A stretch of 64,000 nucleotides of DNA from the sequence record PZ445428.1; one strand, given 5' to 3'. Positions 6,881 through 64,000 of this stretch are shown here, in pieces. The notes below the pieces were generated by a model, which was not told the origin of the DNA, made no database searches, and worked only from the letters and a program-made list of their open reading frames with translations. The translations under genes were made by a program, and so were the position numbers. Source of the DNA: a phage. Positions within the stretch are counted from its first letter, which is position 1, and the number at the start of each line of letters is the position of its first letter.

Positions 6881-6889
6881 TAAAACTAA

Positions 6890-6916
6890 GGAGATCTTCG
6901 GGTCTCCTTTTTCTTT
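6890..6916 (+). terminator. rho-independent terminator after nrdA
   Basis: Hairpin GGAGATC-ttcg-GGTCTCC followed by TTTTTCTTT. Confidence 0.6.
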
Positions 6917-6926
6917 GAAATTTTAC

Positions 6927-6955
6927 TTGCTAATCGCGACCTGATTTGCTATAAT
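6927..6955 (+). promoter_or_regulatory. early promoter cassette (-35 TTGCTA, -10 TATAAT)
   Basis: Consensus hexamers with 17-bp spacer upstream of HNH/nrdB. Confidence 0.6.
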
Positions 6956-6979
6956 ATCTCTATATTAAGGAGATATACT

Positions 6980-7498: not shown

Positions 7499-7501
7499 TT
7501 A

Positions 7502-8647
7502 ATGACAACCTTACTAAATCTGAACTGGAATCCTGATTCTGAAGAGCTATTTCTGGGTGATGCTTTGGGAGTAGCAGACTATGTTCGTGTTGCTCATCCA
7601 GAGCTAGAACGACTTGCACTATTGCAGAGGAGCCAGTTTTGGACTGAAACAGAAATCAGTCTAGAAAGTGACAAAAAGCAATGGCCTAATCTCCCAAGAG
7701 AAATACAAGAAATCACTCTGCTGAATTTAGCTTGGCAGGTTCAAACAGATTCATTTATTAGTAGAGCACCAGAAGCCGCAGTACTTCCTTTGGTTAGTCG
7801 CCCTGAGTTAGAGGGAATGCTAAAGCAGTGGAGCTACTTCGAAGATCTGCACAGCCGTGCTTATAGCAACATTATCCGTAACGTTCTGACTGATCCAGCA
7901 GAATTTATCGATTCTGTTACAAAAAACCAAGAAGCATTCGCACGTATCGCTGATTCCGTAGAACTGTTCGATGAACTGTATCAATTAGGTCAGTATTTCA
8001 TCGCAGTACGTGACCATCGTGGTGACAATACTTATCCAGAAACCGAGTTTCCTGAAGTTAAACGTGAAACTCAGGCTAAACTGTTAGATGCCTATTTTGC
8101 AATCTATGGTCTGGAAGCAATGCAGTTCTACGCATCTTTTGCTTGTACCTTTGCTCTAGCAGAAAACGATATTCTGCAAGGTATTGCTAAGAACCTGCAA
8201 TTGATTGCTAAAGATGAAGCTCTGCATACTCAAATGTCCAAAGCAGTTATCCAGATCATGTTCCAGCAGTTCGACCAAGATCTGATTGATGAAGCTCTGG
8301 CTAAAGCACCAGCGCAGCTTTTGAAAACTCTGCAAACTGAAATCAACTGGGGCCACTTTATCTTTAAAGGCCGTAGTCTGATTGGTCTGAACGCAGAACT
8401 TCTGGAAGAATACCTTTACTTTGTAGGACGTAACGCATTTATGCATATTGGCGTAGAATGGCCGAGCAATCTGCCAGTAATTACTAAGAACCCAATTCCG
8501 TGGATCATGAACTGGCTGGATACTACCTCTTTACAACCTGCTCCACAGGAAATCCAGATTGGTGCAGCTTATCGTGTAGGTCAGGTAACTGAGACTTCAA
8601 CTGATACCTTGAAAGACCTGGGTAATGAATTTGAGGGCATGTTCTAA
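7502..8647 (+). CDS. nrdB: ribonucleoside-diphosphate reductase small subunit (class Ia)
   Basis: 381-aa ORF directly after nrdA/HNH; di-iron/tyrosyl-radical subunit-like sequence. Confidence 0.85.
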   Translation: MTTLLNLNWNPDSEELFLGDALGVADYVRVAHPELERLALLQRSQFWTETEISLESDKKQWPNLPREIQEITLLNLAWQVQTDSFISRAPEAAVLPLVSRPELEGMLKQWSYFEDLHSRAYSNIIRNVLTDPAEFIDSVTKNQEAFARIADSVELFDELYQLGQYFIAVRDHRGDNTYPETEFPEVKRETQAKLLDAYFAIYGLEAMQFYASFACTFALAENDILQGIAKNLQLIAKDEALHTQMSKAVIQIMFQQFDQDLIDEALAKAPAQLLKTLQTEINWGHFIFKGRSLIGLNAELLEEYLYFVGRNAFMHIGVEWPSNLPVITKNPIPWIMNWLDTTSLQPAPQEIQIGAAYRVGQVTETSTDTLKDLGNEFEGMF

Positions 8648-9183
8648 TGATAGCAGCAATCTATGCAACTGGGCCGAAAGGGGAGTTCGGCCTCAATGGT
8701 AGACTCCCTTGGGGTTCCTTCAAAGAGGAACTAGATATATTTTATGCCACACTAGATTCTCTAGCACCTGATAACATCATCATTGGTGCAGGTACGTGGT
8801 TGGGCTTTCCTGAAACGCTTCAAAAGCGGATTTTAGGGGATTCTGATCTGTTTATTTATGCCAATGCCCACAAGCCTTTACCAGAAACTATTGGGTGCCC
8901 TACTCGAATTACTAGCATTGGGTATACTTTGCCTGAATTCTTTAAGGAAGAAGTAACAGTAGTATTGGGCGGAGCAGCTTTGCTCCTAGAGATGTATGCT
9001 AAAAATCACTTAGACATGGCATATGTTTCGACAATCGCATCAGCAACACCATTATCAGCTGATGTACACTTGCATCCACATATTACTATGACTAACTCGA
9101 TGGCAACCAGAATGGAGTATGCATCAGGGGAGAATGCGGATAAAACCCTTTCCTTCCTACAGGAGCTGGTAACGTTTAAATGA
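8647..9183 (+). CDS. frd: dihydrofolate reductase
   Basis: 178-aa ORF between nrdB and thyA; N-terminus IAAIYA..G..G.LPW DHFR-like; start overlaps nrdB stop. Confidence 0.65.
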
Positions 9184-10034
9184 AACAATATATTGAAACA
9201 GGAAAACGTATTCTCGAAGAAGGTCAGTGGGTAACTAATCCTAGAACAGGTGTACGTTGCCTCACTATTATTGATGCAGATTTCACTTTTAATGTGGGGG
9301 CTAATGAATTTCCTCTTATTACTACTCGTAAGGCATTTGCAAAACAAGCAATAATGGAAATGATTGGCTATCTACGTGGTTATGACTCCGCAGCACAATT
9401 CCGCGATATCGGGGTTAATACGTGGAACGCTAATGCAAATGAAAACCTTGCATGGTTGGATAATCCATATCGTAAAGGCGAGGATGATATGGGACGGGTC
9501 TATGGTGTTCAAGGACGTCATTGGACAAACTCTGATGGTCTTATGTTTGACCAATTATCCAAGATCTATCGTAACCTGAAAAGAGGGATTGATGATCGTG
9601 GGGAAATTCTAACTTTCTGGAATCCGGGGGAGTTCTCAAAGGGCTGCTTGCGTCCTTGTATGCACACCCATCAGTTCTCTATTCTAGGTGATACCTTATA
9701 TCTGAATTCATTTCAGAGGTCTAATGACTTCCTGCTAGGCCAGGTATTTAACATGGTTCAATGCTACGCTTTGCTTGCAATCATGGCTCAAATCACTGGA
9801 TATAAACCTGGGATCGCTCGCCAAAAGATCGTGAATCTTCACATCTATGAGAATCAGTATGAAGTTCTAATGGAACACAAACAGTTTGATCGTGAACCTT
9901 TTGAGCCGCCTCATCTGATTATTAATCCAGATATTCGAACTTTGGATGATGTATTAACTTGGGTAAGTAAGGATGATTTTACTGTTCGTGGCTATGAACA
10001 TCATCCTGCTATTGCATATCCATTTACGGTGTAA
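9180..10034 (+). CDS. thyA: thymidylate synthase
   Basis: 284-aa ORF; [10 protein letters not shown] catalytic-Cys region and QRSNDFLLG motif typical of ThyA. Confidence 0.85.
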
Positions 10035-50189: not shown

Positions 50190-50470
50190 TCAACACTTTC
50201 TTCTAGACTCCTAAGTTTCTAGGAAAACTCTCGATATCCAGGGCAGTTTTCATTATTCCTAGAAACTCTAGCAATAGGCGGTTAATACAGTAAACTGTCA
50301 TTTCAGTCGCTACCCTCCTTCAATGACAGGGCGGTTATAGGGAGGGCGGTTATTTCTAGGAGACATTTTTTGAAAACACATTTCTGGAAATTCTCATCGG
50401 ATTTGCACATTACATTTCTAGAAATTTATGGTCGGATTTGCACATTGATAGAAGACTCCAGAATTTCTAT
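50190..50470. repeat. cluster of TTTCTAGRAA-type palindromic motifs (about 6 copies)
   Basis: AGTTTCTAGGAAAACT, TTCCTAGAAACT, CATTTCTAGGAGA, TACATTTCTAGAAATTTATG, CCAGAATTTCTATG read in sequence. Confidence 0.5.
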
Positions 50471-50996
50471 GAACATTGAAAATAGCAGCATTATTTCGGG
50501 CCGAAGGCCCATGTTTGCCTGAGTTTTTAGAGCCACAGGAATTTTCACTTGTCAAGCAATTTTGCCCCCTTTAACTAATAAAATTTCACATAATCTCCAC
50601 CTATCTCAAATCTCCCCAAAACATCCCACATTATCCCCAAAAACGCAGCAAATAAGGCGTTTCACGCCATTTCCGCTGCCCCTTCCGTTTCTCCTCTTAT
50701 TTTCTCTCACTGCGTCAACTCTCACACAAACTCACACAATCACACACTCTCTCATCGAACTCACAAAAACTTCATCGGATTCGCACATCTTAACCCTAGA
50801 AAAATCATGTCGTATTTGCACATATGCGGCTGGATTTGTGCGCAGCACGAGTCTGCCCGAGTTTTTAGGAAAATTCATTGTCGGATTTGCACAATATAAA
50901 ATATTTTCGGGTCGGATTTGCACACTACCAAAAATTGTCGGATTCGCACATACACGCCCACGCGTAATTCATGGCGGCAAATGTCGGATTTGCACA
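50394..50996 (+). repeat. array of about 9 direct copies of 14-bp motif GTCGGATT(T/C)GCACA with irregular spacing
   Basis: Copies near 50397, 50431, 50775, 50809, 50830 (degenerate), 50880, 50911, 50937, 50983, all same orientation. Confidence 0.8.
50570..50760 (+). repeat. CA/CT-rich low-complexity tract (CTCACACAA repeats)
   Basis: Strand-biased pyrimidine+A composition; generates spurious Pro/Ser/Thr/His ORFs. Confidence 0.6.
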
Positions 50997-51039
50997 AAAG
51001 CGCAGGGCAAAATGAAAATGCCCTGCTGGCCGAAATGCG

Positions 51040-51175
51040 AATGATAATGAGAACGATTCGCATTTGAGAAGTTGAATGCGAATGAGAATGAGTCGCGTTT
51101 GGAAAGTGGAATGAGAATGGTTATTATTTACAGAGTTGAATGCGAATGAGTCGCATAATGAGAATGATTTGCATT
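51040..51175 (+). repeat. tandem GAATGCGAATGAGAATGA-family repeats
   Basis: GTTGAATGCGAATGAG twice plus several GAATGAGAATG units. Confidence 0.7.
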
Positions 51176-51204
51176 TAGGGAGGGAAGTGAGAAACACTGC
51201 TATT

Positions 51205-51305
51205 TAAGTTATCCACAGGTTTATCAACAGCACGATTTGACTTGACAAAACCCTAGCGATTTTGAGGCGTTTTCAACAGACTTATCAACAGGTTATCCTA
51301 CTGGA
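51205..51305. promoter_or_regulatory. cluster of DnaA-box-like 9-mers (one perfect TTATCCACA, plus TTATCAACA x2 and TTATCCTAC)
   Basis: Consensus TTATCCACA at about 51209-51217; related boxes at about 51221, 51282, 51293. Confidence 0.5.
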
Positions 51306-51345
51306 TAAATATACAGTATTCCTGCGTAGGGAATAACTCTAATAT

Positions 51346-51385
51346 AGCGTTTAAACGCTCTCAAACGCATTCTAAGCGGTTTAAT
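51346..51385 (+). repeat. copy A of ~30-bp repeat AAACGCTCT..AA.GC.ATTCTAAGCG.TTT
   Basis: Near-identical to copy at 54931-54968; inverted related copy at 54393-54430. Confidence 0.55.
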
Positions 51386-51691
51386 TTTGGAGGAGGTATT
51401 TTAATAAGGGGAAATTTGTTTGCAGGCAGAAAAGGCGGGGCCGATAGTTGCGCCCCGTTATTATTAGAGGAGTGGGCAATTATCCCGCTTTGCCATTTCG
51501 CGCCACTCCTCCCACTGTTTCACCTTGCGGCGATGTTCCAAAAACTTTTTAAACCACTGTTTCATAATGCCATCGCACCTAGAATGAGAATGATTATTAT
51601 TAACATTGCAAAGCCGTTCCCAAATCGTAAACGCTGGGAATGTTTCCCAGCGGTATTATTAGATTTATGGGATTGCGTTTTACGCCACCAG

Positions 51692-51877
51692 CTATTCACG
51701 GTAGACACGCCAGCCGTCATTAAACATTTCACGGCTGTAAAATTCATGATTGAATTTGTAACCGTCCTCAGTGGTGATCACTTCATATTTCATGAATAAA
51801 TATTCATGGATAGAAAAATAACGATGGGTTACTTTTTCACCTTCTAGCATAGCCTTTACAGCTTCATTTCTAGTCAT
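51692..51877 (-). CDS. hypothetical protein (61 aa)
   Basis: ORF track; start overlaps stop of upstream gene (ATGA); AAGGTGG RBS. Confidence 0.45.
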   Translation of the reverse strand: MTRNEAVKAMLEGEKVTHRYFSIHEYLFMKYEVITTEDGYKFNHEFYSREMFNDGWRVYRE

Positions 51878-52218
51878 TGCGCCACCTTTCGAAACGCTGT
51901 TTCAATACTTTCAGCGGTTGATTGAATATACGCGCCTTTCATAATCAGGCGCTCTGTACATACTTTGCGGAAAATATCAATAAATTCATCTTCATTTTCT
52001 GCAATCAAAGGCTCACCCATAACCTGAATATCGCATGAGTTAAAAGTAAGAAACTGAAAGGCAAGCTCGCGAGCGACAACGGCATTAATCTTATAATGTG
52101 CTTTTCCTTCATAGATGTTAACCACGCCTTTATAAACTGGTGAAAGCTGATTTAAATAGTTTGCTAACAATGCCGGACGGCAATTAGTTACAAAGCGGTT
52201 GCCTTCATAAATAACCAT
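51874..52218 (-). CDS. hypothetical protein (114 aa)
   Basis: ORF track 51874..52317 trimmed to ATG after AGGAG RBS. Confidence 0.5.
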   Translation of the reverse strand: MVIYEGNRFVTNCRPALLANYLNQLSPVYKGVVNIYEGKAHYKINAVVARELAFQFLTFNSCDIQVMGEPLIAENEDEFIDIFRKVCTERLIMKGAYIQSTAESIETAFRKVAQ

Positions 52219-52354
52219 TAGAAATATACTCCTGTTACCAGATTGTAGCACAAACGGACGGTAGCAGATATTGACAGCGCCACGGCACAAACGCCCCCAA
52301 ACGCCGCCACTATACAAACAACGGTTTCACAAGTTTTTTCAAAATCGCTTTTCA

Positions 52355-52567
52355 TTATAATACCCCACGAAAAGCAGCGTAAAAAGTAGCAAAGTGTTTA
52401 ACCGTTTCCGCTATCAAATTGCCGCGCTTATCAAATTTCTTTTCTGTAACACGGAAAGCGTTTTTGTTGCGCGGTACATATTCAATTTTGCAGTCGTCAC
52501 GCTCAAACGTGTTAACATCCACCAGCTTAAAACCTTTAGAACGGGCAAGGGATACATTTTTCAACAT
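52355..52567 (-). CDS. hypothetical protein (70 aa)
   Basis: ORF track; strong AGGAGG RBS. Confidence 0.5.
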   Translation of the reverse strand: MLKNVSLARSKGFKLVDVNTFERDDCKIEYVPRNKNAFRVTEKKFDKRGNLIAETVKHFATFYAAFRGVL

Positions 52568-52624
52568 TTTACTTCCTCCTAGTAAGGGAATTTTTTACTC
52601 CACCATTTCGGTGTAAAGGCATTA

Positions 52625-52657
52625 TAACAAAAAAGGCCGCCGATTAGGGCGACCTTT
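52625..52657 (-). terminator. hairpin terminator (minus strand)
   Basis: AAGGCCGC...GCGACCTT hairpin with A-run on plus strand to the left. Confidence 0.45.
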
Positions 52658-52670
52658 ACAAAACTTTACA

Positions 52671-53144
52671 TTACGCTATTTCTGTGACTTCAATACTGTA
52701 TAACTCTCTTAAAGCCTGAATGAGAACGTTGTACTCTTCCCATTCTTTCCCCTCGGGAATATATACAAGTTGCTTTAATCGGTTGGCGTATAATAACGCC
52801 TTGTTATCATTAATAGCTACGCCGCCGTGTTTAACAATCCATCGTGTAACAGTTCCAATCGGATCACCGCCATTAACATAAATACCTGATTGCGTCAACT
52901 GATATTTATAGAGGCTGCCTTCAATACTATTATCTTCAATGCCGCTTTCGAAATCCTCATCATTTTCGAAACGAGAAGCATTATCATATGCTAGTTCTTG
53001 GGCGAAAGCGTCCAGATCACAGCCAGCAGGAATAAAATGTTCCTCCGTCCAGTTCTCTCCGCAATAGCCCGTATTGCAATCTGATATAACGATCATATCG
53101 TGGTTAGCTTTCCCGCTAACAGGTAAACCGTATTTCTCTGACAT
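52671..53144 (-). CDS. hypothetical protein (157 aa)
   Basis: ORF track; AGGAGA RBS; CG-rich codon usage unlike the early region. Confidence 0.6.
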   Translation of the reverse strand: MSEKYGLPVSGKANHDMIVISDCNTGYCGENWTEEHFIPAGCDLDAFAQELAYDNASRFENDEDFESGIEDNSIEGSLYKYQLTQSGIYVNGGDPIGTVTRWIVKHGGVAINDNKALLYANRLKQLVYIPEGKEWEEYNVLIQALRELYSIEVTEIA

Positions 53145-53160
53145 TAATTAGTCTCCTAAC

Positions 53161-53193
53161 TAAAAGGGAAAAGGCGGGGCAAACTACCCCGCC
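53161..53193 (-). terminator. rho-independent terminator (minus strand)
   Basis: GGCGGGG-caaacta-CCCCGCC hairpin with A-run on plus strand to the left. Confidence 0.55.
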
Positions 53194-53202
53194 CGATTAT
53201 TA

Positions 53203-54210
53203 TTACTCGCTTTCGGCGTTTTGGGTAAAGGTGGAAATGTCAATGCCTTTTACCATTTCGTCGATCATTTCAGCGATGTTAAAAGATTGTACCATTTCTA
53301 ACATTGCCGCTTCCATTGCCGCGCCTGCTACTGCTTTAGCTTTTGCGTTAGTCGGGGCGTACTGGTCAACCGCTACGCTTAACAGGTTAGCGATCACTAC
53401 GCGGCCAATCGGCGTATCAATATAACCTTTAATCATAAACGGTGCTTTTTTCGCCGCTACTTTTGTGATTTGAGTCAAAGCAATTTTACCCGCTTCCAGT
53501 TTAGCAGCGTTTACAACGGCGGATTTATTAGCGGCGATGATAGAAGTTACTTTAGACATAGTGTTATTTCCTTTATTTTCAGTAGTTTGCGCAATTGCGC
53601 TTGAAGTTTGAGTGTTAGAGCTTACAGCTTGTTTAGCTACGTTGTCAACTGGTTTTAATGTAAATCCAGATTTTGCGACATTCATCACATTATCCTCATC
53701 CTCAAAATAACTTTGAGGAAACAACATGTTACCTGTCGAACGTTCAAAACACAATACGCCGGTAGTAGAAATTGAATCATCTTTCGCGCGGCTAATATGT
53801 GTACCACACTCGCCCCAAATGCTAGACAATAAATCTTCTACACTGCTAGAGTTAATATTAGATACCCGAACGCCGAAAACTTGATCTTTATCCTGTACAT
53901 TATAACCACGGGCAAGATAACCGCGATCGTCATGACCTACAATGATAAAATCAATATTGTTTTCACGGCGATTATTAAAGATGAAATAATCACGGTTATA
54001 TAATACTAAAATCCGCGTAGGATCAAGTAATTGTGTGAAATCATCAATTGAATAATCCACCTCACAATCATCTAAAATCATGCTGTGGATTTGTTCAACC
54101 TTTGCCGCCGTATGGTGAACGCTTGCCGCGCTACTACCATCTAGCAGATTGCGCAAACTACCTTTTAAAATAGTTGCGTTTTCTGGTACTGCAATTCTGG
54201 TCAAAGACAT
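53203..54210 (-). CDS. hypothetical protein (335 aa)
   Basis: ORF track; GAGGGAG RBS; Ala/Lys-rich C-terminal half. Confidence 0.6.
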   Translation of the reverse strand: MSLTRIAVPENATILKGSLRNLLDGSSAASVHHTAAKVEQIHSMILDDCEVDYSIDDFTQLLDPTRILVLYNRDYFIFNNRRENNIDFIIVGHDDRGYLARGYNVQDKDQVFGVRVSNINSSSVEDLLSSIWGECGTHISRAKDDSISTTGVLCFERSTGNMLFPQSYFEDEDNVMNVAKSGFTLKPVDNVAKQAVSSNTQTSSAIAQTTENKGNNTMSKVTSIIAANKSAVVNAAKLEAGKIALTQITKVAAKKAPFMIKGYIDTPIGRVVIANLLSVAVDQYAPTNAKAKAVAGAAMEAAMLEMVQSFNIAEMIDEMVKGIDISTFTQNAESE

Positions 54211-54392
54211 TTCTTTGTCTCCCTCGTTAATCGGTGAGTGAATGATATAGATATTTGTTCACTATGGGCAACGTTTATTTTACCTTTTTATTTTTCTTGC
54301 TCAAATCGAAAAAGTATGCTAACCGCGCGTTTTCTATTTCTAGCTCTCTGTAAGCGTACACAAGGCTTTATTATAATAAGGGTAACAGTGAG

Positions 54393-54430
54393 AAAACCGC
54401 TTAGAATCGATTCTAGACCGCTTAAAATTG
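54393..54430 (-). repeat. inverted copy of TTCTAAGCGG-family repeat
   Basis: AAACCGCTTAGAATCGATTCTAGACCGCTTAAAA. Confidence 0.45.
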
Positions 54431-54930
54431 ATTGCGGTTGTTAGTGCTACCTATTTACCCTGTATATTTATACAGTAGGATAACCTGTTTATAAGTCTGT
54501 AGATAAGTCCTCTTATCTCTGCCTATTGCGTCAAGTTATTTTGTGCTGTGTATAACTTTGGGGATAAGTTAAATGATAGTGGTTCTCACTTAGCCCGATA
54601 GTTTCTCATAGTTATTATTTCTCATTAATTTATATGTATATTATATATTATGGAATAGTTAGTTGGCTAATAGGATTTTCCGTGATTAATAGTCTGCTAA
54701 TGATAACGCATGTTACAATCCACCAGCGCGATTACCATCCTAGCGACTGTTAGCGTGCTAATGATCCATAACGTTACCAATTCTTAAATGATACTCATTC
54801 TCATTGTAGGAAAGTTACGAAATGCTGTTATAAAGCAACATGTCAATAGCAAAGCGGGTAAGGCATAAAAATAAATTTTGTCAATACCCGAAAGTTATTA
54901 AATGTGGTGTGAATAAGTTATCAACAGGGT

Positions 54931-54968
54931 CTAAAACGCTCTGTAAGCGATTCTAAGCGCTTTTGATG
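54931..54968 (+). repeat. copy B of ~30-bp repeat, preceded by DnaA-box-like TTATCAACA
   Basis: CTAAAACGCTCTGTAAGCGATTCTAAGCGCTTTTGATG; TTATCAACA at about 54918. Confidence 0.55.
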
Positions 54969-55377
54969 AAAAGCTATCCCATCATAAGGGGACTATACCG
55001 AACGCCTCACCACGAGGATTTTAGATTTTGTCAAGTACCCTAGAGCAGATATAAATGAAAAAATTACTTGCTTAAATGGTTGTTTTCGTGTTATTCGCGC
55101 GCCCGTTTCATTAAATTTAGTGCCTTGCTGGACGTTTGCGGAGACTGGTTTTCTTTACGTTTCTTTACAAAAATAAGGTTGCGCCATTTTCGGGAATAAC
55201 CTATTATTTATCTCGTAGGACGGCAAGACGGAAACGAAAGGCCAGAATACACGGTAAGGATAACAGCGATTGACAGTCTGTATGACCTTTCAAAACCTTA
55301 CCACGCTCTTTAAAAATCAGGTACAAGATACATATTAAAGCCTATCGGCTTACTCCACTAAACAAGGATAAGACGAT

Positions 55378-55569
55378 ATGAGAGAAAAACTGTATGATGC
55401 GACTATTTCAAATGAAATCAGGACGCTAGATAAAATTACAGTAGAACAAGCCGAAAATGTGATTAAATTTGTTGAAAAATATGATGGTGAATGTTTCTTT
55501 ATAAGAGACGATATCTACGCATGTTGTTACAAATCACATAATTTTTCAGTTACTCATAAAGGTTTATAA
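55378..55569 (+). CDS. hypothetical protein (63 aa)
   Basis: ORF track. Confidence 0.45.
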   Translation: MREKLYDATISNEIRTLDKITVEQAENVIKFVEKYDGECFFIRDDIYACCYKSHNFSVTHKGL

Positions 55570-55570
55570 T

Positions 55571-55780
55571 ATGAAACAATCTCTTTTGCTAACGGGTAAA
55601 CCTGCTAGCCCATTAAACAGCAGAACAAAAAAGCTCTTGACAGTAGCGCAACAATCCGTAAAATACAGATTCAAGCAATACAAGAAAGGCAAGCAACAAG
55701 GTTTAGAAATGGTGTGGCGTAATATAATGATTGATTTATATAACTCACATCAAATCGAAAAAAGTTTAAAAAACGCTTGA
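55571..55780 (+). CDS. hypothetical basic protein (69 aa)
   Basis: ORF track. Confidence 0.45.
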   Translation: MKQSLLLTGKPASPLNSRTKKLLTVAQQSVKYRFKQYKKGKQQGLEMVWRNIMIDLYNSHQIEKSLKNA

Positions 55781-55962
55781 CGCTCCAGCCGATAGGCTCT
55801 AATATGTATCTCGTACCACGGCGAATGACAAAACGCCCTGCTCTTTAAAAATTTGGATAACGGTAATGTTTAGGCTAACTCCTAGCGGATTATAATCTAA
55901 TACCGATTTAAAACATCAAATCGGTATTGTGGAATAATCCCCAATAAACCGGAGTATTAAAA

Positions 55963-56214
55963 ATGCAAAACGTTATTACCGCGCCGAAAGTTGGTCAATC
56001 TGTATTCATTCCTTTTGTTACTAAAACGGATGAATTAACCGGAAAAGCCGAACGTATTAAAGGTGCGGCGCTTGATCCTTTCGATAAAATCGAAGCGGTC
56101 TATGCGGAAACGGAACGCAGTAACCACGGCAAGCCGATTTATAACGTCCGTGTTAAATCAGGCGACGTTGTAAAGATCATTCAAAAAGATGATAAATGGC
56201 AAGCTATCGCATAA
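55963..56214 (+). CDS. hypothetical protein (83 aa)
   Basis: ORF track; GGAGTATTAAAA before ATG. Confidence 0.5.
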   Translation: MQNVITAPKVGQSVFIPFVTKTDELTGKAERIKGAALDPFDKIEAVYAETERSNHGKPIYNVRVKSGDVVKIIQKDDKWQAIA

Positions 56215-56470
56215 TAAGCGGTAACGATTTTAAATTAAAATATCATGCTTAGAGCGGCAATTATGAGCTAACTCGAAGTAATAGCGAGAAATTACCATAC
56301 CAGTGAAAGTGATAAAAGCTATCGGTTATAACCTTTAGCGCCTTAATTGGCTTTAAATTGAAAACTATAATCTAGAGTTTTCGTTATATATTTCGTGACT
56401 ATATACCGGAATATATAGCGGCTAATTCTAGCCATAATCCCTTAATTAAAAATTGAATGGAGTATTAAAT

Positions 56471-56887
56471 ATGTCTAACGTTAAAACCGAAAAAACCGCA
56501 AAATTCTCTTGGAACGAAGAAAACACCGAAAAAGCGGTATCAATGTATAATACTTTCGTAAAAGATAGCGGCATTGAATTTGCTAACACTGACGGCTTAA
56601 AAGAAATTGCCGCCGCCGTTGGCGCTGCAAGTCCTGTTTCTGTACGTTCTAAATTGACAAGCGCGAAAGCGTATCAGAAAAGCGATAAACCGCGTAAAGT
56701 TGGCGGCGGGTCTAGTGTCCGTAAAGCTCACTATGTACGCGTCATTGCTAAACACGCCATTGATTCAGGTATCGTAAAAGATGCTGACGATCTGGCATCG
56801 CTGGAAAGTGCAAAATTGGAAACGCTGGACGCGGTAGCGCAATTGCTCGGCGTAGCGGAGGAAGTAAAACAGGCCGCAGGTGAATAA
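56471..56887 (+). CDS. hypothetical protein (138 aa); possible A2-like pre-early protein
   Basis: ORF track 56453..56887 trimmed to ATG after AATGGAGT; size and position relative to A1-like gene fit T5 A2 (inference only). Confidence 0.4.
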   Translation: MSNVKTEKTAKFSWNEENTEKAVSMYNTFVKDSGIEFANTDGLKEIAAAVGAASPVSVRSKLTSAKAYQKSDKPRKVGGGSSVRKAHYVRVIAKHAIDSGIVKDADDLASLESAKLETLDAVAQLLGVAEEVKQAAGE

Positions 56888-56936
56888 ATTTTAATTAGCG
56901 GGGAATATTCCCCGCTATCCCTGAAAGGAGAATAAA

Positions 56937-57164
56937 TTGATTTTCTATCCTAGCGAGTCGCTAATATTAGGTTTATTCCTGATAGCGGTTATATTTATCT
57001 TTAATTACGGTAAATATATAATTGCAATAATCGGTATTAATTCAGTATATGCCGCCGATAAATTTAAACGATCGGCAAATGTGCAAAAGTATTTAGCCAT
57101 TATCTTTTTAACGCTGGCTATAGCTTGCGGTTTTAGTTCTAGTCTAGTGCCTATATTAGAATAA
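56937..57164 (+). CDS. small membrane protein (75 aa), TTG start
   Basis: ORF track; AAAGGAGA RBS. Confidence 0.35.
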   Translation: MIFYPSESLILGLFLIAVIFIFNYGKYIIAIIGINSVYAADKFKRSANVQKYLAIIFLTLAIACGFSSSLVPILE

Positions 57165-57270
57165 TATTGCAAATTATAACGCCTTTAAAAGTCCCCACTT
57201 CGGGTAAGGCGTTATATTTGGCAATATTGCCAGTATTAATAATTATCCCTTTAATGGAGTTGAATTAGTT

Positions 57271-58935
57271 ATGAATATTTCCGCTGAAAAACAAGCTCAA
57301 ATCGTTAAACTTGCTGCTGATTTTAATTTCTACGGTAAACGTTTACGCGCTACTAAGCTGGAAGTGTGCGACGATATTTCAAAAGCTGTTTACGATACAA
57401 CGAAACATTCAACCGCAATCTGTGACTGGCTGGAAGCAAACAAGCCAGCAAAACCAAAAGCGGCAAAAGCTGAAAAGGCGATTAAAAATGATGATCGCCC
57501 CGAAGCGGCAGGGATTGTTTCTAGTACCGTTGAACAATGGGAAGTTAAATCCGGTCGCCGTTTTATTCTAACGTCGATTCAAAATAACACTTTCCCGCAT
57601 AAAAACTTTTTAGCAAGTCTGGAAAAATTCGCTGATTATATCGGCGCTGAATTGCTGATTAGTAAATTCATTTACAATAAAAACGGCTTCCAGAATGGTG
57701 AAGGTAGCGACGGCATTAAATACGATCCCGCATTTAATAAATATATTTGCGAGAAAAACGTATTTTTGAATAATCGCCGCTTTGCTTTCATGGCTGAAAT
57801 TAACGTATTACCAACGGCAGATTATCCGCTTTCAGGATTCGCAGAAACCGCCACGGCTTTAAATATTGAAGGTTTGGCAATCGGTCACGCTAAAATCACC
57901 GCTGAAAGTGTGCCAGCGTTAAAAGGTGAAATTGTGCGCCGTATGTATTCAACCGGAACGGCTACGCTTAAAAACTACATCCAGCAGAAAGCAGGTCAAA
58001 AAGCTGAAGCGTTACATAATTTCGGCGCTTTGCTGGTGGAGTTCGACGACGACGGCGAATTTTTTGTTCGCCAGCTTGAAACAATGGATGAAAGCGGAAT
58101 GTTCTATGATTTGAATATTTGCGCCACTCCTAGCGGTTGCAAAGAAATTACAGGACACGTTTTAGGCTTGCAATATGGCGATATTCATGCCGAAAAATTA
58201 GATGATGAATGTGCCGTTGCGTCATGGGCTAGTGAAAATTCATTGCTGGATATTCTTAAACCGAAATATCAGTTTATTCATGATGTGCATGATTTTACAT
58301 CCCGCAATCACCATAACCGCGCAAGTGGTGTATTCCTTGCTAAACAGTACGCCGCAGGACGTGACAAAGTTCTGGATGATCTAATTGATACGGGTCGCGT
58401 ATTGGAATCAATGGAGCGTGATTTTAGTCAGACAATCATTGTTGAATCTAACCATGATTTAGCGCTTTCACGCTGGCTTGATGATCGCAACGCTAACATT
58501 AAGGACGATCCCGCAAACGCCGAACTATATCACCGCCTGAATGCAGCCATTTACGCCGCAATCGGTGAACGTGATGAAACGTTTAACGTGTTAGATTACG
58601 CGCTTAGAAACGTTGCTGGCTGCGAATTTAACGCCATATTCCTGACTACTGACCAGTCGTTTAAAATCGCTGGCATTGAATGCGGCGTACATGGTCACAA
58701 CGGCATTAACGGCAGTCGTGGCAATCCTAAGCAGTTTAAGAAACTTGGACGCCTTAACACTGGTCACACTCACACGGCTAGTATTTACGGCGGCGTTTAT
58801 ACCGCTGGCGTTGCTGGTAATCTTGATATGGGCTACAACGTCGGCGCTAGTAGCTGGACGCAAACGCATTTAATTACCTATGCAAACGGTCAAAGAACAT
58901 TGATTGACTTTAAGAATGGTAAATTCTTTGCATAA
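57271..58935 (+). CDS. A1: A1-like pre-early protein (metallophosphoesterase-type nuclease domain)
   Basis: 554-aa ORF with GDIHAE and HD..H metallophosphatase-like motifs; size close to T5 A1 and adjacent to dmp-like gene. Confidence 0.6.
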   Translation: MNISAEKQAQIVKLAADFNFYGKRLRATKLEVCDDISKAVYDTTKHSTAICDWLEANKPAKPKAAKAEKAIKNDDRPEAAGIVSSTVEQWEVKSGRRFILTSIQNNTFPHKNFLASLEKFADYIGAELLISKFIYNKNGFQNGEGSDGIKYDPAFNKYICEKNVFLNNRRFAFMAEINVLPTADYPLSGFAETATALNIEGLAIGHAKITAESVPALKGEIVRRMYSTGTATLKNYIQQKAGQKAEALHNFGALLVEFDDDGEFFVRQLETMDESGMFYDLNICATPSGCKEITGHVLGLQYGDIHAEKLDDECAVASWASENSLLDILKPKYQFIHDVHDFTSRNHHNRASGVFLAKQYAAGRDKVLDDLIDTGRVLESMERDFSQTIIVESNHDLALSRWLDDRNANIKDDPANAELYHRLNAAIYAAIGERDETFNVLDYALRNVAGCEFNAIFLTTDQSFKIAGIECGVHGHNGINGSRGNPKQFKKLGRLNTGHTHTASIYGGVYTAGVAGNLDMGYNVGASSWTQTHLITYANGQRTLIDFKNGKFFA

Positions 58936-58987
58936 TTAAATTTAATCGGCGGTTGAAATATACCGCCATTAATAAAAGGATAATTAA

Positions 58988-59260
58988 ATGTCTATTAAAA
59001 TTAATATTCCATCTAGTAAAAACGTGTCAGATGTTTACGATATTAGCCAGATAAGGCAGGGCACTGTATATCAAAATATTAAAGATGGTGAATGTTATAT
59101 TTACCAGAATGAATTAAACGGTCATTCATATATTATTGAATCACACGATTTTTATTCTTTTGAAACTGACCACGAGGCAAGGGAATTTATTTCTGATAAT
59201 GATTTGCCTGACGCATGGAAAGAAACAAATCTAAACTTTGTTGTAAGTTTAGAAAAATAA
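58988..59260 (+). CDS. hypothetical protein (90 aa)
   Basis: ORF track. Confidence 0.45.
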   Translation: MSIKINIPSSKNVSDVYDISQIRQGTVYQNIKDGECYIYQNELNGHSYIIESHDFYSFETDHEAREFISDNDLPDAWKETNLNFVVSLEK

Positions 59261-59296
59261 ATTAATCCCGTAATTAAATAATCTGGAGTTATAAAC

Positions 59297-59689
59297 ATGA
59301 AACAATCAAACATTCCTTTTGATCGCGCCGCTTCTTCAATCGTTCTGGTTTATTCTAATGGTGAACGCTATCACGTTGAATCAGGTCATGTTATCGACGA
59401 TTTGCTAAACTATAACGAAGCGTTACAGGTTACAACGTTTGCATATATGACAGGGAAAGCGGCAAGCCATATTAAAGCAAAAGGCGTTTATGTCGATACA
59501 ATCAAACAAGAAACGATTATTATCGATGCTGTTAAATCCGGTCTAGCGTTTGCAGTTGTCGCGCCGTGTCTCGGTTGCCTTGATGATCAAATGGTATCGG
59601 CAAAGGTCTACACTTGCGCGGGGATTCGTTCTAGCGTATCCGGTGAAGATGTTAGCTTTATTGCTGATGCTCTCGCTTTTGGTCTGTAA
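59297..59689 (+). CDS. hypothetical protein (130 aa)
   Basis: ORF track. Confidence 0.5.
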   Translation: MKQSNIPFDRAASSIVLVYSNGERYHVESGHVIDDLLNYNEALQVTTFAYMTGKAASHIKAKGVYVDTIKQETIIIDAVKSGLAFAVVAPCLGCLDDQMVSAKVYTCAGIRSSVSGEDVSFIADALAFGL

Positions 59690-59778
59690 TAGTTAATTGA
59701 ACATTGCCAGCTAATCTAATATAATTAGCTGGCAAGATTGAATTAATAACCCAGTCCCTTAAATGGAGAAAGTAACAA

Positions 59779-60513
59779 ATGAATCAAGTTAACATGAATA
59801 TTACCCGCACTTTCCCGCATATTTCCCGCGTTATGATTTGGGATTTAGACGGAACGGTTATAAATAGTTTTCATCGTGTAGCGCCTTGCTTTGATGATAA
59901 CGGGAATTTAGATTTAGTTAAGTATTCCCGCGAAGCCTGCAAACATGATTTAATTATGCAGGATTCTTTATTGCCATTGGTTGAATATATGCGCCAATGT
60001 ATGAATGATGCTAATACATTAAACATCATTTGCACCGCTCGCTTAATGTCTAAAAGCGATTATTTCTACTTACGTAAACAAGGTCTAAGAGGGCGCGGAA
60101 ATAGTAACATTCGCGTGTTTTCCCGAGATACATTACATAAATACTTTGAAGCGGAAAAGGTTAGCGATATATATCACAGCAAAGACGCTGTATATAAATC
60201 TTATTACTTTGAACTGTTTAAACAGCTATATCCGAACGCTGATTTTACGATGATTGATGATCATAAAGGCGTATTATCAGCAGCAGCAAACGCAGGATTT
60301 AAAACACTGGACGCTCAAGCCGTTAACGATATCCTATCAATCGGGGTAACATTGATCGGTGAAACCTTTATTGATGAATCGCTTGATGATGATAACGATT
60401 ATCAATTCCTAGCCGAACGTTTAAAAATGTGTTGGGAAGGTATGACCGAAGAAGAACGCAGCGAATATAGTACCACGCCGCAACAGTTCATTGATAAATT
60501 AAAAGTTGCCTAA
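59779..60513 (+). CDS. dmp: 5'-deoxyribonucleotidase-like HAD-family hydrolase
   Basis: 244-aa ORF; HAD motif I IWDLDGTVI near N-terminus; size matches T5 dmp. Confidence 0.6.
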   Translation: MNQVNMNITRTFPHISRVMIWDLDGTVINSFHRVAPCFDDNGNLDLVKYSREACKHDLIMQDSLLPLVEYMRQCMNDANTLNIICTARLMSKSDYFYLRKQGLRGRGNSNIRVFSRDTLHKYFEAEKVSDIYHSKDAVYKSYYFELFKQLYPNADFTMIDDHKGVLSAAANAGFKTLDAQAVNDILSIGVTLIGETFIDESLDDDNDYQFLAERLKMCWEGMTEEERSEYSTTPQQFIDKLKVA

Positions 60514-63518: not shown

Positions 63519-64000
63519 ATGGCAAATGATGTTTTAGTACCTGATCTCATGTCTCCTGAAGGCATGGACGTAATTGAGGCTTATCTACAATGTGGTAGTG
63601 ATGTACGAATGGCCTCACGTACTCTTGGAATGTCGGAAATTGCATTCCGCGATATTATGAATCGTGGTGAGGTAAAGAATTATCTCAACGACATATTTAT
63701 GGAGAGTGGCTTCCGCAATCGTGACAAGTTATTTGGTGTACTCGATGAAGTCATCAAGCGCAAGTTGGAAGAACTCGAAGAAACTGGTATGGGATCTGAC
63801 CAGGATATCATGGATATTCTGTGGAAAGCCCATAAAATGAAGATGGAAGAAATGAAGATGATGGTAGAGCTGGAGAAAGCGAGAGCTGCTACACGTGCTC
63901 CTACTAATCAGACTAACATTCAGAACAACATTATTGCTGGCTCCGGTGATCAGAACTACATGGACTTAATTACTTCGCTAGCAACTGGAGGTAGAAAGTA
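63519..64000 (+). CDS. HTH DNA-binding protein, possibly terminase small subunit (3' end beyond window)
   Basis: AAGGAGG RBS; helix-turn-helix-like [16 protein letters not shown]; no stop before window end. Confidence 0.35.

What the first reader, a model, noticed from the sequence alone, without database searches (positions are those of the whole stretch)
51346..54968. Minus-strand gene block bracketed by ~30-bp direct repeats and compositionally distinct
Near-identical ~30-bp elements (AAACGCTCT..AA.GC.ATTCTAAGCG.TTT) occur at 51346-51385 and 54931-54968 in the same orientation, with an inverted related copy at 54393-54430. Together they bracket a block of five minus-strand genes of unknown function (53203-54210, 52671-53144, 52355-52567, 51874-52218, 51692-51877) with strong RBSs, their own terminators, and CG-rich codon usage unlike the AT-rich early region. 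The repeats may be operators for coordinated control or footprints of a recombinational insertion. Being in the first DNA to enter the cell, the block is a plausible anti-defence or host-takeover cassette.
Basis: partly seen in the sequence, partly recalled or inferred. Interest (0 to 1): 0.65.

Follow-up and report, generated by a model that had tools for sequence, protein, structure and literature searches.

The report
Conserved repeats flanking T5-type pre-early operon
The three short repeats are real, but they are the already-described non-coding repeats of T5-like phages that border a known pre-early "host-takeover" operon rather than scars of a foreign insertion; the new point is that the same 34-bp sequence is almost unchanged in distant Vibrio phages and in IncX plasmids.

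Summary
The window is Escherichia phage TrudiGerster, a T5-like Epseptimavirus. The three ~34-bp copies exist where stated: A 51350-51383 (+), B 54393-54426 (-), C 54931-54964 (+). They far exceed chance. B and C are the homologues of T5's annotated "inverted repeats B'/B". A matches an unannotated third T5 copy.

A and B are the inner ends of a ~215-bp inverted repeat (element, LexA-type palindrome, paired DnaA boxes). This repeat flanks the P11 pre-early operon, the T5.011-017 region. The block has seven annotated genes and is a mosaic: three clear T5 homologues, including the Ung-dependent AP-site nickase, and three genes absent from T5.

Its G+C is ordinary. Its CpG excess is real but shared with the A2-A1-dmp operon, so it marks the pre-early class, not an island.

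New observations:
- The element is 36/37 identical in a Vibrio phage whose A1 protein is 31% identical.
- It occurs in 1374 plasmid records; every record inspected carries an IncX or R6K-like replicon.
- The operon is inverted between the same repeats in Sugarland and My1.

Sequence, not hairpin pairing, is conserved. I therefore favour a double-stranded DNA protein-binding site; the binding partner is unknown.

The parts
51350..51383 (+). Element copy A (TTTAAACGCTCTCAAACGCATTCTAAGCGGTTTA). It lies between the operon's last terminator and the LexA-like/DnaA-box array. It is the homologue of an unannotated third copy in T5.
   Evidence: 29/30 identical in Pectobacterium phage My1
54393..54426 (-). 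Element copy B, the homologue of T5 'inverted repeat B''. Its 5' half is diverged and it contains the palindrome TAGAATCGATTCTA. It lies about 89 bp upstream of the P11 -35 hexamer.
54931..54964 (+). Element copy C (CTAAAACGCTCTGTAAGCGATTCTAAGCGCTTTT), closest to the family consensus and the homologue of T5 'inverted repeat B'. A convergent DnaA-box pair lies immediately to its left. A conserved sigma-70-like promoter lies about 65 bp to its right.
51185..51385 (.). Left arm of the ~215-bp inverted repeat: DnaA boxes, spacer, DnaA boxes, LexA-like palindrome, element A. It corresponds to T5 IRD'-spacer-IRC' in Repeat Region 3 (the injection-stop region), extended by element A.
   Evidence: (I1, I2, I5); Davison 10.1101/866236
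54390..54595 (.). Right arm of the inverted repeat: element B, LexA box, DnaA boxes. It corresponds to T5 IRC-spacer-IRD plus IRB' in Repeat Region 2.
54460..54475 (.). CTGTATATTTATACAG, the only perfect LexA-type box (CTGT-N8-ACAG) in the 64-kb window. It corresponds to the palindrome annotated as 'palindrome D' in T5.
51301..51316 (.). CTGGATAAATATACAG, the one-mismatch twin of the LexA-type box in the other repeat arm. Both copies are perfect in T5.
51209..51290 (+). DnaA box TTATCCACA (51209) and near-consensus boxes TTATCAACA (51221, 51282).
   Evidence: Davison
54498..54567 (-). DnaA box TTATACACA (54547) and near-consensus boxes (54498, 54559).
54908..54926 (.). Convergent DnaA box pair, TTATTCACA (-) and TTATCAACA (+), abutting element C.
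54277..54304 (-). Promoter P11 homologue (TTGAGC-16-TAAAAT). Its core GAAAAATAAAAAGGTAAAATAA is nearly identical in T5, where P11 is an experimentally validated pre-early promoter.
   Evidence: PMC7472727
53203..54210 (-). 335-aa protein of Pfam DUF7566, the T5.011 homologue (55% identity). The T5 protein is toxic and alters the nucleoid; its function is unknown.
   Evidence: paper. AlphaFold2 model: N-terminal domain confident, no informative fold match.
52671..53144 (-). 157-aa protein (phrog_6741) with no T5 homologue. Diverged homologues occur in Sugarland and My1. The model is confident but has no fold relative.
52355..52567 (-). 70-aa homologue (93% identity) of the T5 endonuclease that nicks abasic sites generated by host Ung.
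   Evidence: PMC8201957 (abstract)
52218..52355 (-). 45-aa hydrophobic ORF, annotated in the record. It has no T5 match.
51874..52218 (-). 114-aa protein (phrog_4379), 90% identical to the T5 gene that follows the nickase. Function unknown.
51692..51877 (-). 61-aa protein (phrog_3474) with no T5 homologue.
51464..51565 (-). 33-aa ORF, annotated in the record. It has an unannotated T5 counterpart at 58% identity.
51425..51458 (-). Terminal hairpin of the operon plus T-run (CGGGGCGCAACTATCGGCCCCGCC TTTTCT on the minus strand).
   Evidence: read from the sequence; the homologous T5 site is annotated as a terminator
55028..55055 (+). Sigma-70-like promoter (TTGTCA-16-TATAAA) downstream of C. It is conserved in T5 and in a metagenomic relative.

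Best explanation
SHOWN. The three sequences are copies of a conserved 34-38-bp non-coding element of the first-step-transfer (terminal-repeat) DNA of T5-like phages. B and C are TrudiGerster's versions of T5 'inverted repeats B'/B'. A is a third copy that T5 also has but does not annotate. A and B form the inner ends of a ~215-bp inverted repeat. The operon between them is the P11 pre-early operon, an accessory and mosaic host-takeover cassette. It is not a foreign island. In other genera the whole operon, with A and B attached, lies inverted between the same repeats.

INFERRED. The element acts as a sequence-specific protein-binding site on double-stranded DNA. It is an imperfect dyad whose half-site is ATTCTAAGCGNTTTTAG. 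With the adjacent DnaA and LexA-type boxes it forms nucleoprotein boundary modules beside the pre-early transcription units. The same sequence persists in replicons that share no detected proteins, so the partner is more likely a conserved host factor than a phage protein. The long inverted repeat then explains the inversions as homologous recombination, a by-product rather than the function.
For: IDENTITY AND SYNTENY
- The window is 100% identical to phage TrudiGerster.
- Annotated neighbours are A2, A1 and the dNMP phosphatase.
- T5 annotates repeats B and B' at the syntenic sites. T5's third copy is visible.
- The P11 core is conserved.
- Three block proteins match T5 at 55-93% identity.

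NOT AN ISLAND
- G+C equals the window mean.
- The excess of CpG and of NCG codons is shared with the A2-A1-dmp operon. It recurs in T5 and Sugarland.

SELECTION ON THE SEQUENCE
- The element is 36/37 identical in Vibrio phage River4. That phage's A1, A2 and Dmp proteins are 31%, 44% and 39% identical.
- 672 phage records hold the element. Some are 100% identical over 38 nt in genomes that are about 83-87% identical across the surrounding 4 kb.
- 1374 plasmid records hold it. Every record inspected carries an IncX or R6K-like replicon, with the element between stbDE (or its equivalent) and the DnaA boxes and iterons of the replication origin.
- It also occurs in jumbo-phage contigs and prophages.

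SEQUENCE RATHER THAN HAIRPIN
- Across 45 distinct copies, 69.8% of cells pair, against 69.5% in shuffles, with no excess of compensatory changes.
- Predicted folding energies are only -5.9 to -9.1 kcal/mol for the window copies.
- Partial copies keep the 3' half alone.

DYAD SYMMETRY
- Sugarland carries a perfect 38-bp palindrome built from the 3' half-site.

INVERSION
- In Sugarland and My1, homologues of the 335-aa and 157-aa proteins keep their order, but the block is reversed relative to both flanks.
- The repeat arms match in both orientations.
Against: - No binding protein is identified and nothing was tested biochemically.
- The 5' half of most copies departs from the dyad in a conserved way (CGCTCTGTAA instead of CGCTTAGAAT). 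A simple homodimer site does not explain this.
- The covariation test has little power because the copies are so alike.
- Sugarland's perfect 17-bp stem, the flanking A- and T-runs, and its annotation as a terminator fit a hairpin role.
- T5 has only degenerate copies (best score 12.5 against 32-54 here) yet performs two-step transfer.
- A T5 mutant lacking hegG-017, the interval that holds B' and IRC-IRD in the T5 map, is viable. The deletion end points were not checked. The element is therefore at most accessory.
- The search for proteins shared between replicons covered only a few kb around each copy and used BLASTP at E<1e-3.
Confidence: 0.6

Rival explanations
1. Hairpin element. When transcribed, or extruded as a cruciform, the imperfect palindrome acts as a weak bidirectional terminator, insulator or RNA 3'-end stabiliser. 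It would shield the DnaA/LexA-box arrays (in IncX plasmids, the replication origin) from read-through transcription.
For: - The element is an imperfect palindrome, AAAACGCT...AGCG(N)TTTT, flanked by A- and T-runs.
- Sugarland has a perfect 17-bp stem (-27 kcal/mol) that its annotators call a terminator.
- IncX copy 1 folds at -10.5 kcal/mol, z = -2.8.
- Copy A sits just beyond the operon's terminator and stays with the operon's 3' end after inversion.
Against: - There is no excess of compensatory changes; when one arm changes the pair simply breaks.
- The window copies fold weakly, with a 13-nt loop. Copy C read on the plus strand does no better than shuffles (z = 0.08).
- The loop sequence is conserved as strongly as the stem.
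- Partial copies lack the 5' arm.
- B and C lie upstream of promoters that fire away from them.
Confidence: 0.2
2. The copies are operators through which a phage protein (such as the DNA-binding A2, or A1) or a host regulator switches the divergent pre-early promoters on or off together.
For: - B and C lie in mirror orientation upstream of the divergent promoters: P11, and the promoter at 55028-55055.
- Pre-early transcription is known to be shut off in an A1-dependent way (Davison).
- A2 binds double-stranded DNA and is encoded next to the element throughout the family.
Against: - The distance to the promoter is not fixed: about 89 bp here and about 120 bp in T5.
- A is downstream of a terminator and next to no promoter.
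- After inversion in Sugarland, B-type and A-type copies face different neighbours.
- T5's copies are degenerate.
- No A1/A2 homologue was found within about 4 kb of the plasmid copy tested. Jumbo-phage and prophage contexts were not tested.
- A2 is only 44% identical where the element is 97% identical.
Confidence: 0.2
3. Recombination footprint or mobile cassette. A and B are terminal repeats left by, or still mediating, insertion and exchange of an accessory gene cassette, comparable to the repeated promoter/stem-loop cassettes that shuffle genes in T4-type phages (comparison recalled from memory).
For: - A and B are inverted with their 5' ends pointing outwards.
- The block's content is mosaic: three of seven genes have no T5 counterpart, and DNA homology breaks between genes.
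- The block has been inverted as a unit in two other lineages.
- In jumbo-phage contigs, direct copies flank a small gene. Tandem copies occur in pOLA52 and in a Pectobacterium prophage.
Against: - The block has the same CpG-rich signature as the rest of the pre-early DNA.
- T5.011 homologues are widespread.
- No recombinase or transposase domain was found in the block's proteins.
- No target-site duplication was seen in the flanks read; this was not searched for systematically.
- The repeat extends about 180 bp beyond the element, so ordinary homologous recombination suffices for the inversion.
- Gene replacements occur inside the block, not at A and B.
Confidence: 0.15
4. Single-strand priming signal or RNA signal. 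Either the element is a primosome-assembly or single-strand-initiation site of the kind reported near R6K origins, or it is a boxA-like antitermination signal (CGCTCTGTAA against CGCTCTTTAA). Both comparisons are recalled from memory.
For: - It lies near the origin in IncX and R6K-like replicons, with DnaA boxes nearby.
- Several copies contain AAGCGG.
- The 5' half resembles boxA at 9 of 10 positions (my own comparison with the recalled consensus).
Against: - Orientation relative to transcription is inconsistent: sense in prophages, antisense or upstream of promoters in phages.
- No Rfam family matches.
- The G that breaks the boxA consensus is constant in nearly all full-length copies.
- T5 DNA enters as a duplex. 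Neither family could be tested with these tools.
Confidence: 0.05

Closest known systems
T5 'inverted repeat B' and 'B'' (annotation of AY587007; Repeat Regions 1 and 2 of Davison, bioRxiv 10.1101/866236)
   Same: - Same syntenic positions: one copy beside the conserved ...ATCCCATCATAAGG flank, the other beside the CTGTATATTTATACAG palindrome.
- Same mutual inversion.
- Shared 5' block CTAAAACGCT.
   Different: - T5's copies lack the highly conserved 3' block ATTCTAAGCG and score below threshold.
- The third copy (A) is not annotated as a repeat in T5.
- Occurrence outside Demerecviridae is not mentioned in the preprint text I read.
T5 injection-stop region repeats IRD'-spacer-IRC' / IRC-spacer-IRD with paired DnaA boxes (Davison 2020; annotations)
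   Same: The window has the same inverted pair, with DnaA and near-DnaA boxes in pairs 3 bp apart.
   Different: - Here the inverted repeat runs on through a LexA-type box to include elements A and B, about 215 bp in all.
- The arms are about 80% identical; the preprint calls T5's 131-bp arms nearly identical.
- The preprint's text does not contain 'LexA' or 'SOS'.
T5 pre-early genes 011-017 (P11 operon), including the Ung-dependent AP-site nickase (PMC8201957; 10.64898/2026.04.02.716235; PMC7472727)
   Same: - Same position, strand arrangement and promoter core.
- Homologues of 011, the nickase and the gene after it.
   Different: - Three of the seven genes (157, 45 and 61 aa) have no T5 counterpart, and T5's 012, 013, 016 and 017 are not matched.
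- The N-terminal half of the 011 homologue is strongly diverged.
Non-coding region between stbDE and the gamma-origin/pir of IncX (R6K-like) plasmids
   Same: - It carries the same 34-bp element, in one or two tandem copies.
- The element is about 0.3-0.5 kb from paired TTATCCACA boxes in pOLA52. The R6K-like plasmid pLR-58-2_3 has one copy about 0.9 kb upstream of its iterons.
   Different: - It is a plasmid replicon. No protein is shared with the phage within the few kb compared around the one plasmid copy tested.
- The IncX1 copies read TTCTGAGCG, which makes a perfect 9-bp stem.
- I found no description of this element in the papers searched.
Repeated promoter/stem-loop cassettes that mediate gene shuffling in T4-type phages (recalled from memory, not checked here)
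   Same: Short conserved intergenic repeats border small accessory genes in a variable early region.
   Different: - The element shows no promoter consensus (my reading of the sequence).
- It is shared with plasmids.
- Gene exchange inside the block does not occur at the elements.

Membership tests
T5-type repeats B/B' of the first-step-transfer DNA | Syntenic position: one copy between the IRD arm and the P11 promoter, the other on the A2-operon side of the intergenic region. | tested here: met
   The window-versus-T5 alignment places B and C at the T5 features annotated 'inverted repeat B'' and 'B'.
T5-type repeats B/B' of the first-step-transfer DNA | The two copies are inverted relative to each other. 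| tested here: met
   I6: arms 54393-54423 and 54934-54964, 81% complementary.
T5-type repeats B/B' of the first-step-transfer DNA | Sequence similarity to T5's own repeat. | tested here: inconclusive
   Only the 5' block CTAAAACGCT(T/C)TCTG is shared. T5's B and B' fall below the scan threshold of 12, and its A-type copy scores 12.5.
T5 pre-early (P11) operon | Lies between Repeat Regions 2 and 3, divergent from the A2-A1-dmp operon. | tested here: met
   Annotation of the record and of T5, plus the synteny map.
T5 pre-early (P11) operon | Encodes homologues of T5.011 and the Ung-dependent nickase. | tested here: met
   55% and 93% identity; DUF7566 and phrog_4227.
T5 pre-early (P11) operon | Promoter P11. 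| tested here: met
   The 22-nt core differs at one position from T5. P11 was validated in T5 by primer extension (PMC7472727).
T5 pre-early (P11) operon | Expressed before second-step transfer. | not testable with these tools
   Needs time-resolved RNA data from TrudiGerster infection.
Horizontally inserted island or mobile cassette | Composition different from both flanks. | tested here: not met
   G+C is at the 55th percentile. The CpG excess is shared with the A2-A1-dmp operon.
Horizontally inserted island or mobile cassette | Presence/absence of the whole block among relatives, with break points at the repeats. | tested here: not met
   The block is present in T5, Sugarland and My1. Gene replacements are internal to it. 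Sample size is small.
Horizontally inserted island or mobile cassette | Recombinase or transposase gene, and target-site duplication. | tested here: not met
   No such Pfam or PHROG hit in the seven proteins. No duplication was seen in the flanks read; this was not searched for systematically.
Intrinsic (rho-independent) terminator | Stable G+C-rich stem with a short loop, followed by a U-run. | tested here: not met
   For the window copies the predicted stem is 8-9 pairs around a 13-nt loop. Energies are -5.9 to -9.1 kcal/mol, and copy C on the plus strand has z = 0.08. The consensus scan does not list them. The Sugarland copy would qualify as a hairpin but lacks a U-run beyond the stem.
Intrinsic (rho-independent) terminator | Pairing kept by compensatory changes. 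| tested here: not met
   3 compensatory cells against 3.2 in shuffles; paired cells 69.8% against 69.5%. The test has low power.
LexA (SOS) box | CTGT-N8-ACAG with an A+T-rich spacer. | tested here: met
   54460-54475 is perfect and unique in the window. 51301-51316 has one mismatch. Both are perfect in T5.
LexA (SOS) box | Bound by LexA. | not testable with these tools
   Needs gel-shift or ChIP.
DnaA box array | TT(A/T)TNCACA. | tested here: met
   Consensus boxes at 51209, 54547 and 54908, with near-consensus boxes beside them.
boxA-type antitermination signal | Lies downstream of a promoter, in the sense orientation. | tested here: not met
   B and C lie upstream of the mapped or predicted promoters. 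Orientation relative to genes differs between contexts.
Known RNA families (Rfam 15) | Covariance-model match. | tested here: not met
   Nothing at the elements at E<=1 in the window or E<=0.1 in six other loci.

The most novel reading that the evidence does not exclude
The 34-38-bp element is the recognition site of a conserved gammaproteobacterial DNA-binding factor not yet linked to it. Unrelated mobile DNAs (T5-like phages, jumbo phages, some prophages and IncX plasmids) would place this site beside DnaA-box arrays. With the LexA-type and DnaA boxes it would form a host-protein landing pad that controls what happens to DNA in its first minutes in the cell, such as the pause in injection, anchoring, or origin activity.
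Probability: 0.25. Interest if true: 0.7.

Novelty: new member of a known kind. Interest (0 to 1): 0.4.

Why it matters
AS SUBMITTED, the finding re-discovers known T5 anatomy in a relative. It says little that is new about anti-defence.

THE FOLLOW-UP gives three usable leads.
- A short non-coding sequence is far better conserved than the family's hallmark proteins and is shared with IncX plasmid replicons. It is a concrete bait for finding the protein or proteins that bind first-step-transfer DNA. How T5 injection pauses and restarts has been open for decades, and experimental tests of the repeat regions are lacking (PMC10644984).
- The strongest LexA-type boxes of the genome sit inside the injection-stop repeats next to the DnaA boxes. 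This adds a second testable host partner.
- The pre-early operon has flipped between its flanking repeats in at least two genera. The repeat modules therefore work in either orientation relative to the operon, which constrains models in which their polarity matters.

These leads must be weighed against two facts. T5 itself has only degenerate copies, and T5 tolerates deletion of the region.

Tried and rejected
- RFAM. Scans of the region and of six other loci gave nothing at the elements.
- LITERATURE BY SEQUENCE. A full-text search for four 10-mers of the element returned only unrelated primers. Searches on R6K origins and on primosome sites gave no description of the element. The 2015 Davison review was not held.
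- PROMOTER READING. I found no acceptable -35/-10 pair on either strand. Comparisons with recalled consensus sites for sigma-E, sigma-28, sigma-32, sigma-54, IHF, Fis, CpxR, RcsB, DeoR, UvrY/GacA, TyrR, ArcA, Tus/Ter, dif, the KorB operator and the P1 C1 operator all failed by eye. None was tested formally.
- Tn3-FAMILY TERMINAL REPEAT. Copy C resembles one (GGGTCT...CGCTC.GT...TAAG), but the leading GGG is not conserved in other copies. Dropped.
- SHARED TRANS-ACTING PROTEIN. All-against-all BLASTP of ORFs around the element in the window, River4, a plasmid and a metagenomic contig found only A1, A2 and Dmp shared, and only between the two phages.
- HALF-SITE AND TAAGCG COUNTS. Neither exceeds shuffles outside the three elements.
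- NICK-SITE IDEA. The 5'-GCGC nick-site sequence (recalled from memory) is present only in copy C. Dropped.
- GENOME SCAN. A strict pattern scan of one genome per bacterial species gave only four loci, so the element is not a chromosomal host site.

Full report
**1. What the window is**

The 4-kb region is 100% identical to Escherichia phage TrudiGerster (MZ501108, locus tags bas27_). This is a T5-like phage of the genus Epseptimavirus. 494 phage records match the region.

The record annotates seven minus-strand genes in the block. Beyond a 1.2-kb non-coding stretch it annotates A2, A1 and the dNMP phosphatase on the plus strand. The window runs in the opposite sense to the standard T5 map.

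**2. The observation**

- A: 51350-51383 (+).
- B: 54393-54426 (-).
- C: 54931-54964 (+).

Pairwise identities are 79-81% over 30-33 nt. The exact 10-mer ATTCTAAGCG occurs three times in 64 kb, only at these sites. A position-weight matrix built mostly from copies in other replicons finds only these three sites, with scores of 32-54. The best score in 20 shuffled windows was 8.7.

The five ORFs, ribosome-binding sites and internal terminators are as described.

Two corrections are needed.
- The pair that brackets the operon is the inverted pair A/B, not the direct pair A/C. A and B are the inner ends of a much longer inverted repeat, 51185-51385 versus 54390-54595, at 80% column identity.
- The block's G+C is ordinary: 0.407 against 0.406 for the window.

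**3. What is already known about it**

The T5 record AY587007 annotates 'inverted repeat B' (5285-5310) and 'B'' (6184-6209). It also annotates inverted repeats C and D, their partners D' and C', and palindrome D.

Alignment of the window with T5 places C at repeat B and B at repeat B'. It places A at a third T5 copy (about 9265-9300) that is not annotated as a repeat.

Davison's preprint (10.1101/866236) names three 'Repeat Regions'. It describes the 131-bp IRC-spacer-IRD / IRD'-spacer-IRC' pair with paired DnaA boxes. It notes that the coding region between Repeat Regions 2 and 3 is the most variable part of the terminal repeat.

The block is therefore the TrudiGerster version of the T5 pre-early operon.
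- The P11 promoter core differs at one of 22 positions from T5. P11 is an experimentally validated pre-early promoter (PMC7472727).
- The 335-aa protein is the T5.011 homologue (55% identity, Pfam DUF7566).
- The 70-aa protein is 93% identical to the T5 nickase that cuts abasic sites made by host Ung.
- The 114-aa protein is 90% identical to the next T5 gene.
- The 157-, 45- and 61-aa proteins have no T5 counterpart.

In T5, genes 011, 013 and 015 are toxic when expressed alone. A mutant deleted from hegG to 017 is viable with small plaques. 011 homologues occur in 60% or more of Demerecviridae (10.64898/2026.04.02.716235).

The 'host-takeover cassette in the first DNA to enter' reading is right, but it is established knowledge.

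**4. Is the block a foreign insertion?**

No.

| Region | CpG observed/expected | NCG codons per 1000 |
|---|---|---|
| Block | 1.34 | 42 |
| A2-A1-dmp operon | 1.60 | 47 |
| Rest of the window | 0.75-0.90 | 22-25 |

The same contrast holds in T5 (1.28 and 1.43 against 0.73) and in Sugarland (1.23 and 1.36 against 0.87). The signature marks the whole pre-early gene class on both sides of the repeats.

No recombinase or transposase domain was found in the block's proteins. Where TrudiGerster and T5 differ in gene content, the homology breaks lie between genes inside the block, not at A or B.

**5. The operon has been inverted in other genera**

This was seen in Klebsiella phage Sugarland and Pectobacterium phage My1.
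- Both flanks (the injection-stop region and the A2 operon) align with the window in one orientation.
- The homologues of the 335-aa protein (36% identity in Sugarland; 55% over the C-terminal 110 residues in My1) and of the 157-aa protein keep their order but lie on the other strand.
- The repeat arms match in both orientations.

This is the pattern expected from recombination between the flanking inverted repeats. A-type and B-type copies stay attached to the operon's 3' and 5' ends, so the break points lay further out, in the DnaA/LexA-box part of the arms.

The preprint describes these genomes as having the region 'replaced by other sequences read in the opposite direction'. At the protein level it is, at least in part, the same cassette turned round.

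**6. The element itself**

*Form.* Aligning 45 distinct copies gives the consensus CTAAAACGCTCTGTAA-nnn-ATTCTAAGCG-A-TTTT. The core CTGTAAnnnATTCTAAGCG is close to constant among full-length copies. It is an imperfect palindrome. In Sugarland one copy is a perfect 38-bp palindrome made of the 3' half-site.

*Conservation.*
- The element is 36/37 identical in Vibrio phage River4. That phage's A1, A2 and Dmp proteins are 31%, 44% and 39% identical to TrudiGerster's.
- 672 phage records carry it, 338 of them Vibrio phages.
- T5 itself has only degenerate copies.

*Occurrence outside the family.*
- 1374 plasmid records hold it. Three records were inspected. In the two with an IncX1 replicon it lies between the stbDE genes and the DnaA boxes, iterons and initiator gene, as two tandem copies in pOLA52. 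The third, pLR-58-2_3, has R6K-like iterons (my reading, compared with the R6K iteron from memory) and one copy about 0.9 kb upstream of them, in the non-coding region before its initiator gene.
- It is present in contigs of 248-358 kb that look like jumbo phages (two read).
- It is present in prophage-like regions of E. coli and Pectobacterium, on an Escherichia albertii contig, and in Arsenophonus.
- It is not a chromosomal host sequence. A strict pattern found only four loci among 185,579 species genomes.

*Architecture in the phages.* In the two inverted-repeat arms of the window, the element is followed outward by a LexA-type palindrome and then by paired DnaA boxes. C instead abuts a convergent DnaA-box pair. 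In River4 one copy lies 8 bp from the palindrome.

**7. How it probably works**

The hairpin implied by the palindrome is not supported as the selected feature.
- Pairing across 45 copies equals the shuffled control (69.8% against 69.5%).
- Compensatory changes are no commoner than chance, and single-sided changes simply break pairs.
- The window copies fold weakly.
- The loop is as conserved as the stem.
- Partial copies keep only the 3' half.

Rfam has no match. Orientation relative to neighbouring genes differs between contexts, which argues against an RNA signal.

No protein family is shared between the phage and plasmid contexts I compared.

The most economical reading is a double-stranded DNA site for a sequence-specific protein, probably a conserved host factor. 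I hold this at moderate confidence. The partner is unknown. The conserved asymmetry of the two halves is unexplained. The element must be accessory, given T5's degenerate copies and the viable hegG-017 deletion.

The hairpin/terminator, operator and recombination-cassette readings remain open at lower weight.

**8. Proteins of unknown function**

The 335-, 157- and 114-aa proteins have no sequence relatives in the PDB.

The 157-aa protein gives a confident model (pLDDT 86.8) with no fold relative.

The 335-aa model has a confident N-terminal alpha/beta domain and a poorly defined helical C-terminus. Only generic helical-bundle matches were found.

Some database records name this family 'DNA N-6-adenine methyltransferase'. 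Pfam assigns only DUF7566.

**9. Verdict**

The repeats are real and non-random. The 'insertion' and 'operator' ideas are not supported as stated.

Filed against what is known, this is a new member of a described kind. The follow-up observations are, as far as the held literature shows, undescribed, and they deserve modest further interest:
- cross-replicon conservation of the element;
- LexA-type boxes inside the injection-stop repeats;
- inversion of the operon in two other genera;
- a CpG/GpC-rich pre-early gene class.

Noticed in passing
window 54931-54964; L004 7004-7037 and 5704-5737; L029 4003-4037 and 4190-4225; L018 3077-3116; L009 908-949 and 1097-1139: The 34-bp element is nearly identical in Vibrio phages (36/37). 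It occurs in 1374 plasmid records, and every record inspected has an IncX or R6K-like replicon, with the element near the origin's DnaA boxes and iterons. It also occurs in jumbo-phage contigs and prophages. It is far better conserved than the phage's A1, A2 and Dmp proteins (31-44% identity).
   Followed up: yes
window 54460-54475 and 51301-51316; L028 5345-5360 and 8543-8558: T5's 'palindrome D' is a canonical LexA-type SOS box (CTGT-N8-ACAG). It is the only perfect one in the 64-kb window, and it is perfect in both repeat arms of T5. The Davison preprint's text does not contain 'LexA' or 'SOS', and no held paper links LexA boxes to T5 first-step-transfer DNA.
   Followed up: partly
window 51467-54210 and 55378-60513, against the rest; L028, L031: The whole pre-early coding region is enriched about 1.5-2-fold in CpG and GpC dinucleotides and in NCG codons relative to early and late genes, at the same G+C. 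This holds in TrudiGerster, T5 and Sugarland but is weak in Vibrio phage River4. One possibility is tuning to host tRNAs before phage tRNAs are made; this was not tested.
   Followed up: partly
L031 3501-7589 (Sugarland); L032 about 5036-9151 (My1): The pre-early operon between the inverted repeats is inverted relative to the A2-A1 operon in Sugarlandvirus and Myunavirus. Recognisable homologues of the 335-aa and 157-aa proteins are retained. The region had earlier been described as replaced by unrelated sequence.
   Followed up: yes
L031 3274-3311: Sugarland carries a perfect 38-bp palindrome, TCTAAAACCGCTTAGAATCGATTCTAAGCGGTTTTAGA, made of two copies of the element's 3' half. Its record annotates it as a terminator.
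   Followed up: partly
window 50390-51200: This stretch holds dense families of short direct repeats (GTCGGATTTGCACA-type and AATGAGAATGA-type, families D1, D2, D4 and D14). They correspond by position to the direct repeats of the T5 injection-stop region.
   Followed up: no
window 53203-54210: Many database records name this DUF7566 family 'DNA N-6-adenine methyltransferase'. No methyltransferase domain is detected, so the name looks like a propagated annotation error.
   Followed up: partly
window 63519-64000: The window continues 482 bases past the last base of the GenBank record (114179). It therefore comes from a copy with a different start point or with the terminal repeat or circular junction included.
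   Followed up: no
window 54340-54358: A partial plus-strand copy of the element's 5' block (GCTCTCTGTAAGCGTAC) lies about 35 bp from B in the opposite orientation. A downstream inverted partial copy (ACAGAGCT) similarly follows the element in the Escherichia albertii and Pectobacterium loci.
   Followed up: no
window 56937-57164: The 75-aa membrane protein between A2 and A1 gives a weak, sub-threshold Pfam hit to TrbL/VirB6-like conjugal-transfer proteins (E = 3.7e-4, 19.9 bits against a cut-off of 23).
   Followed up: no
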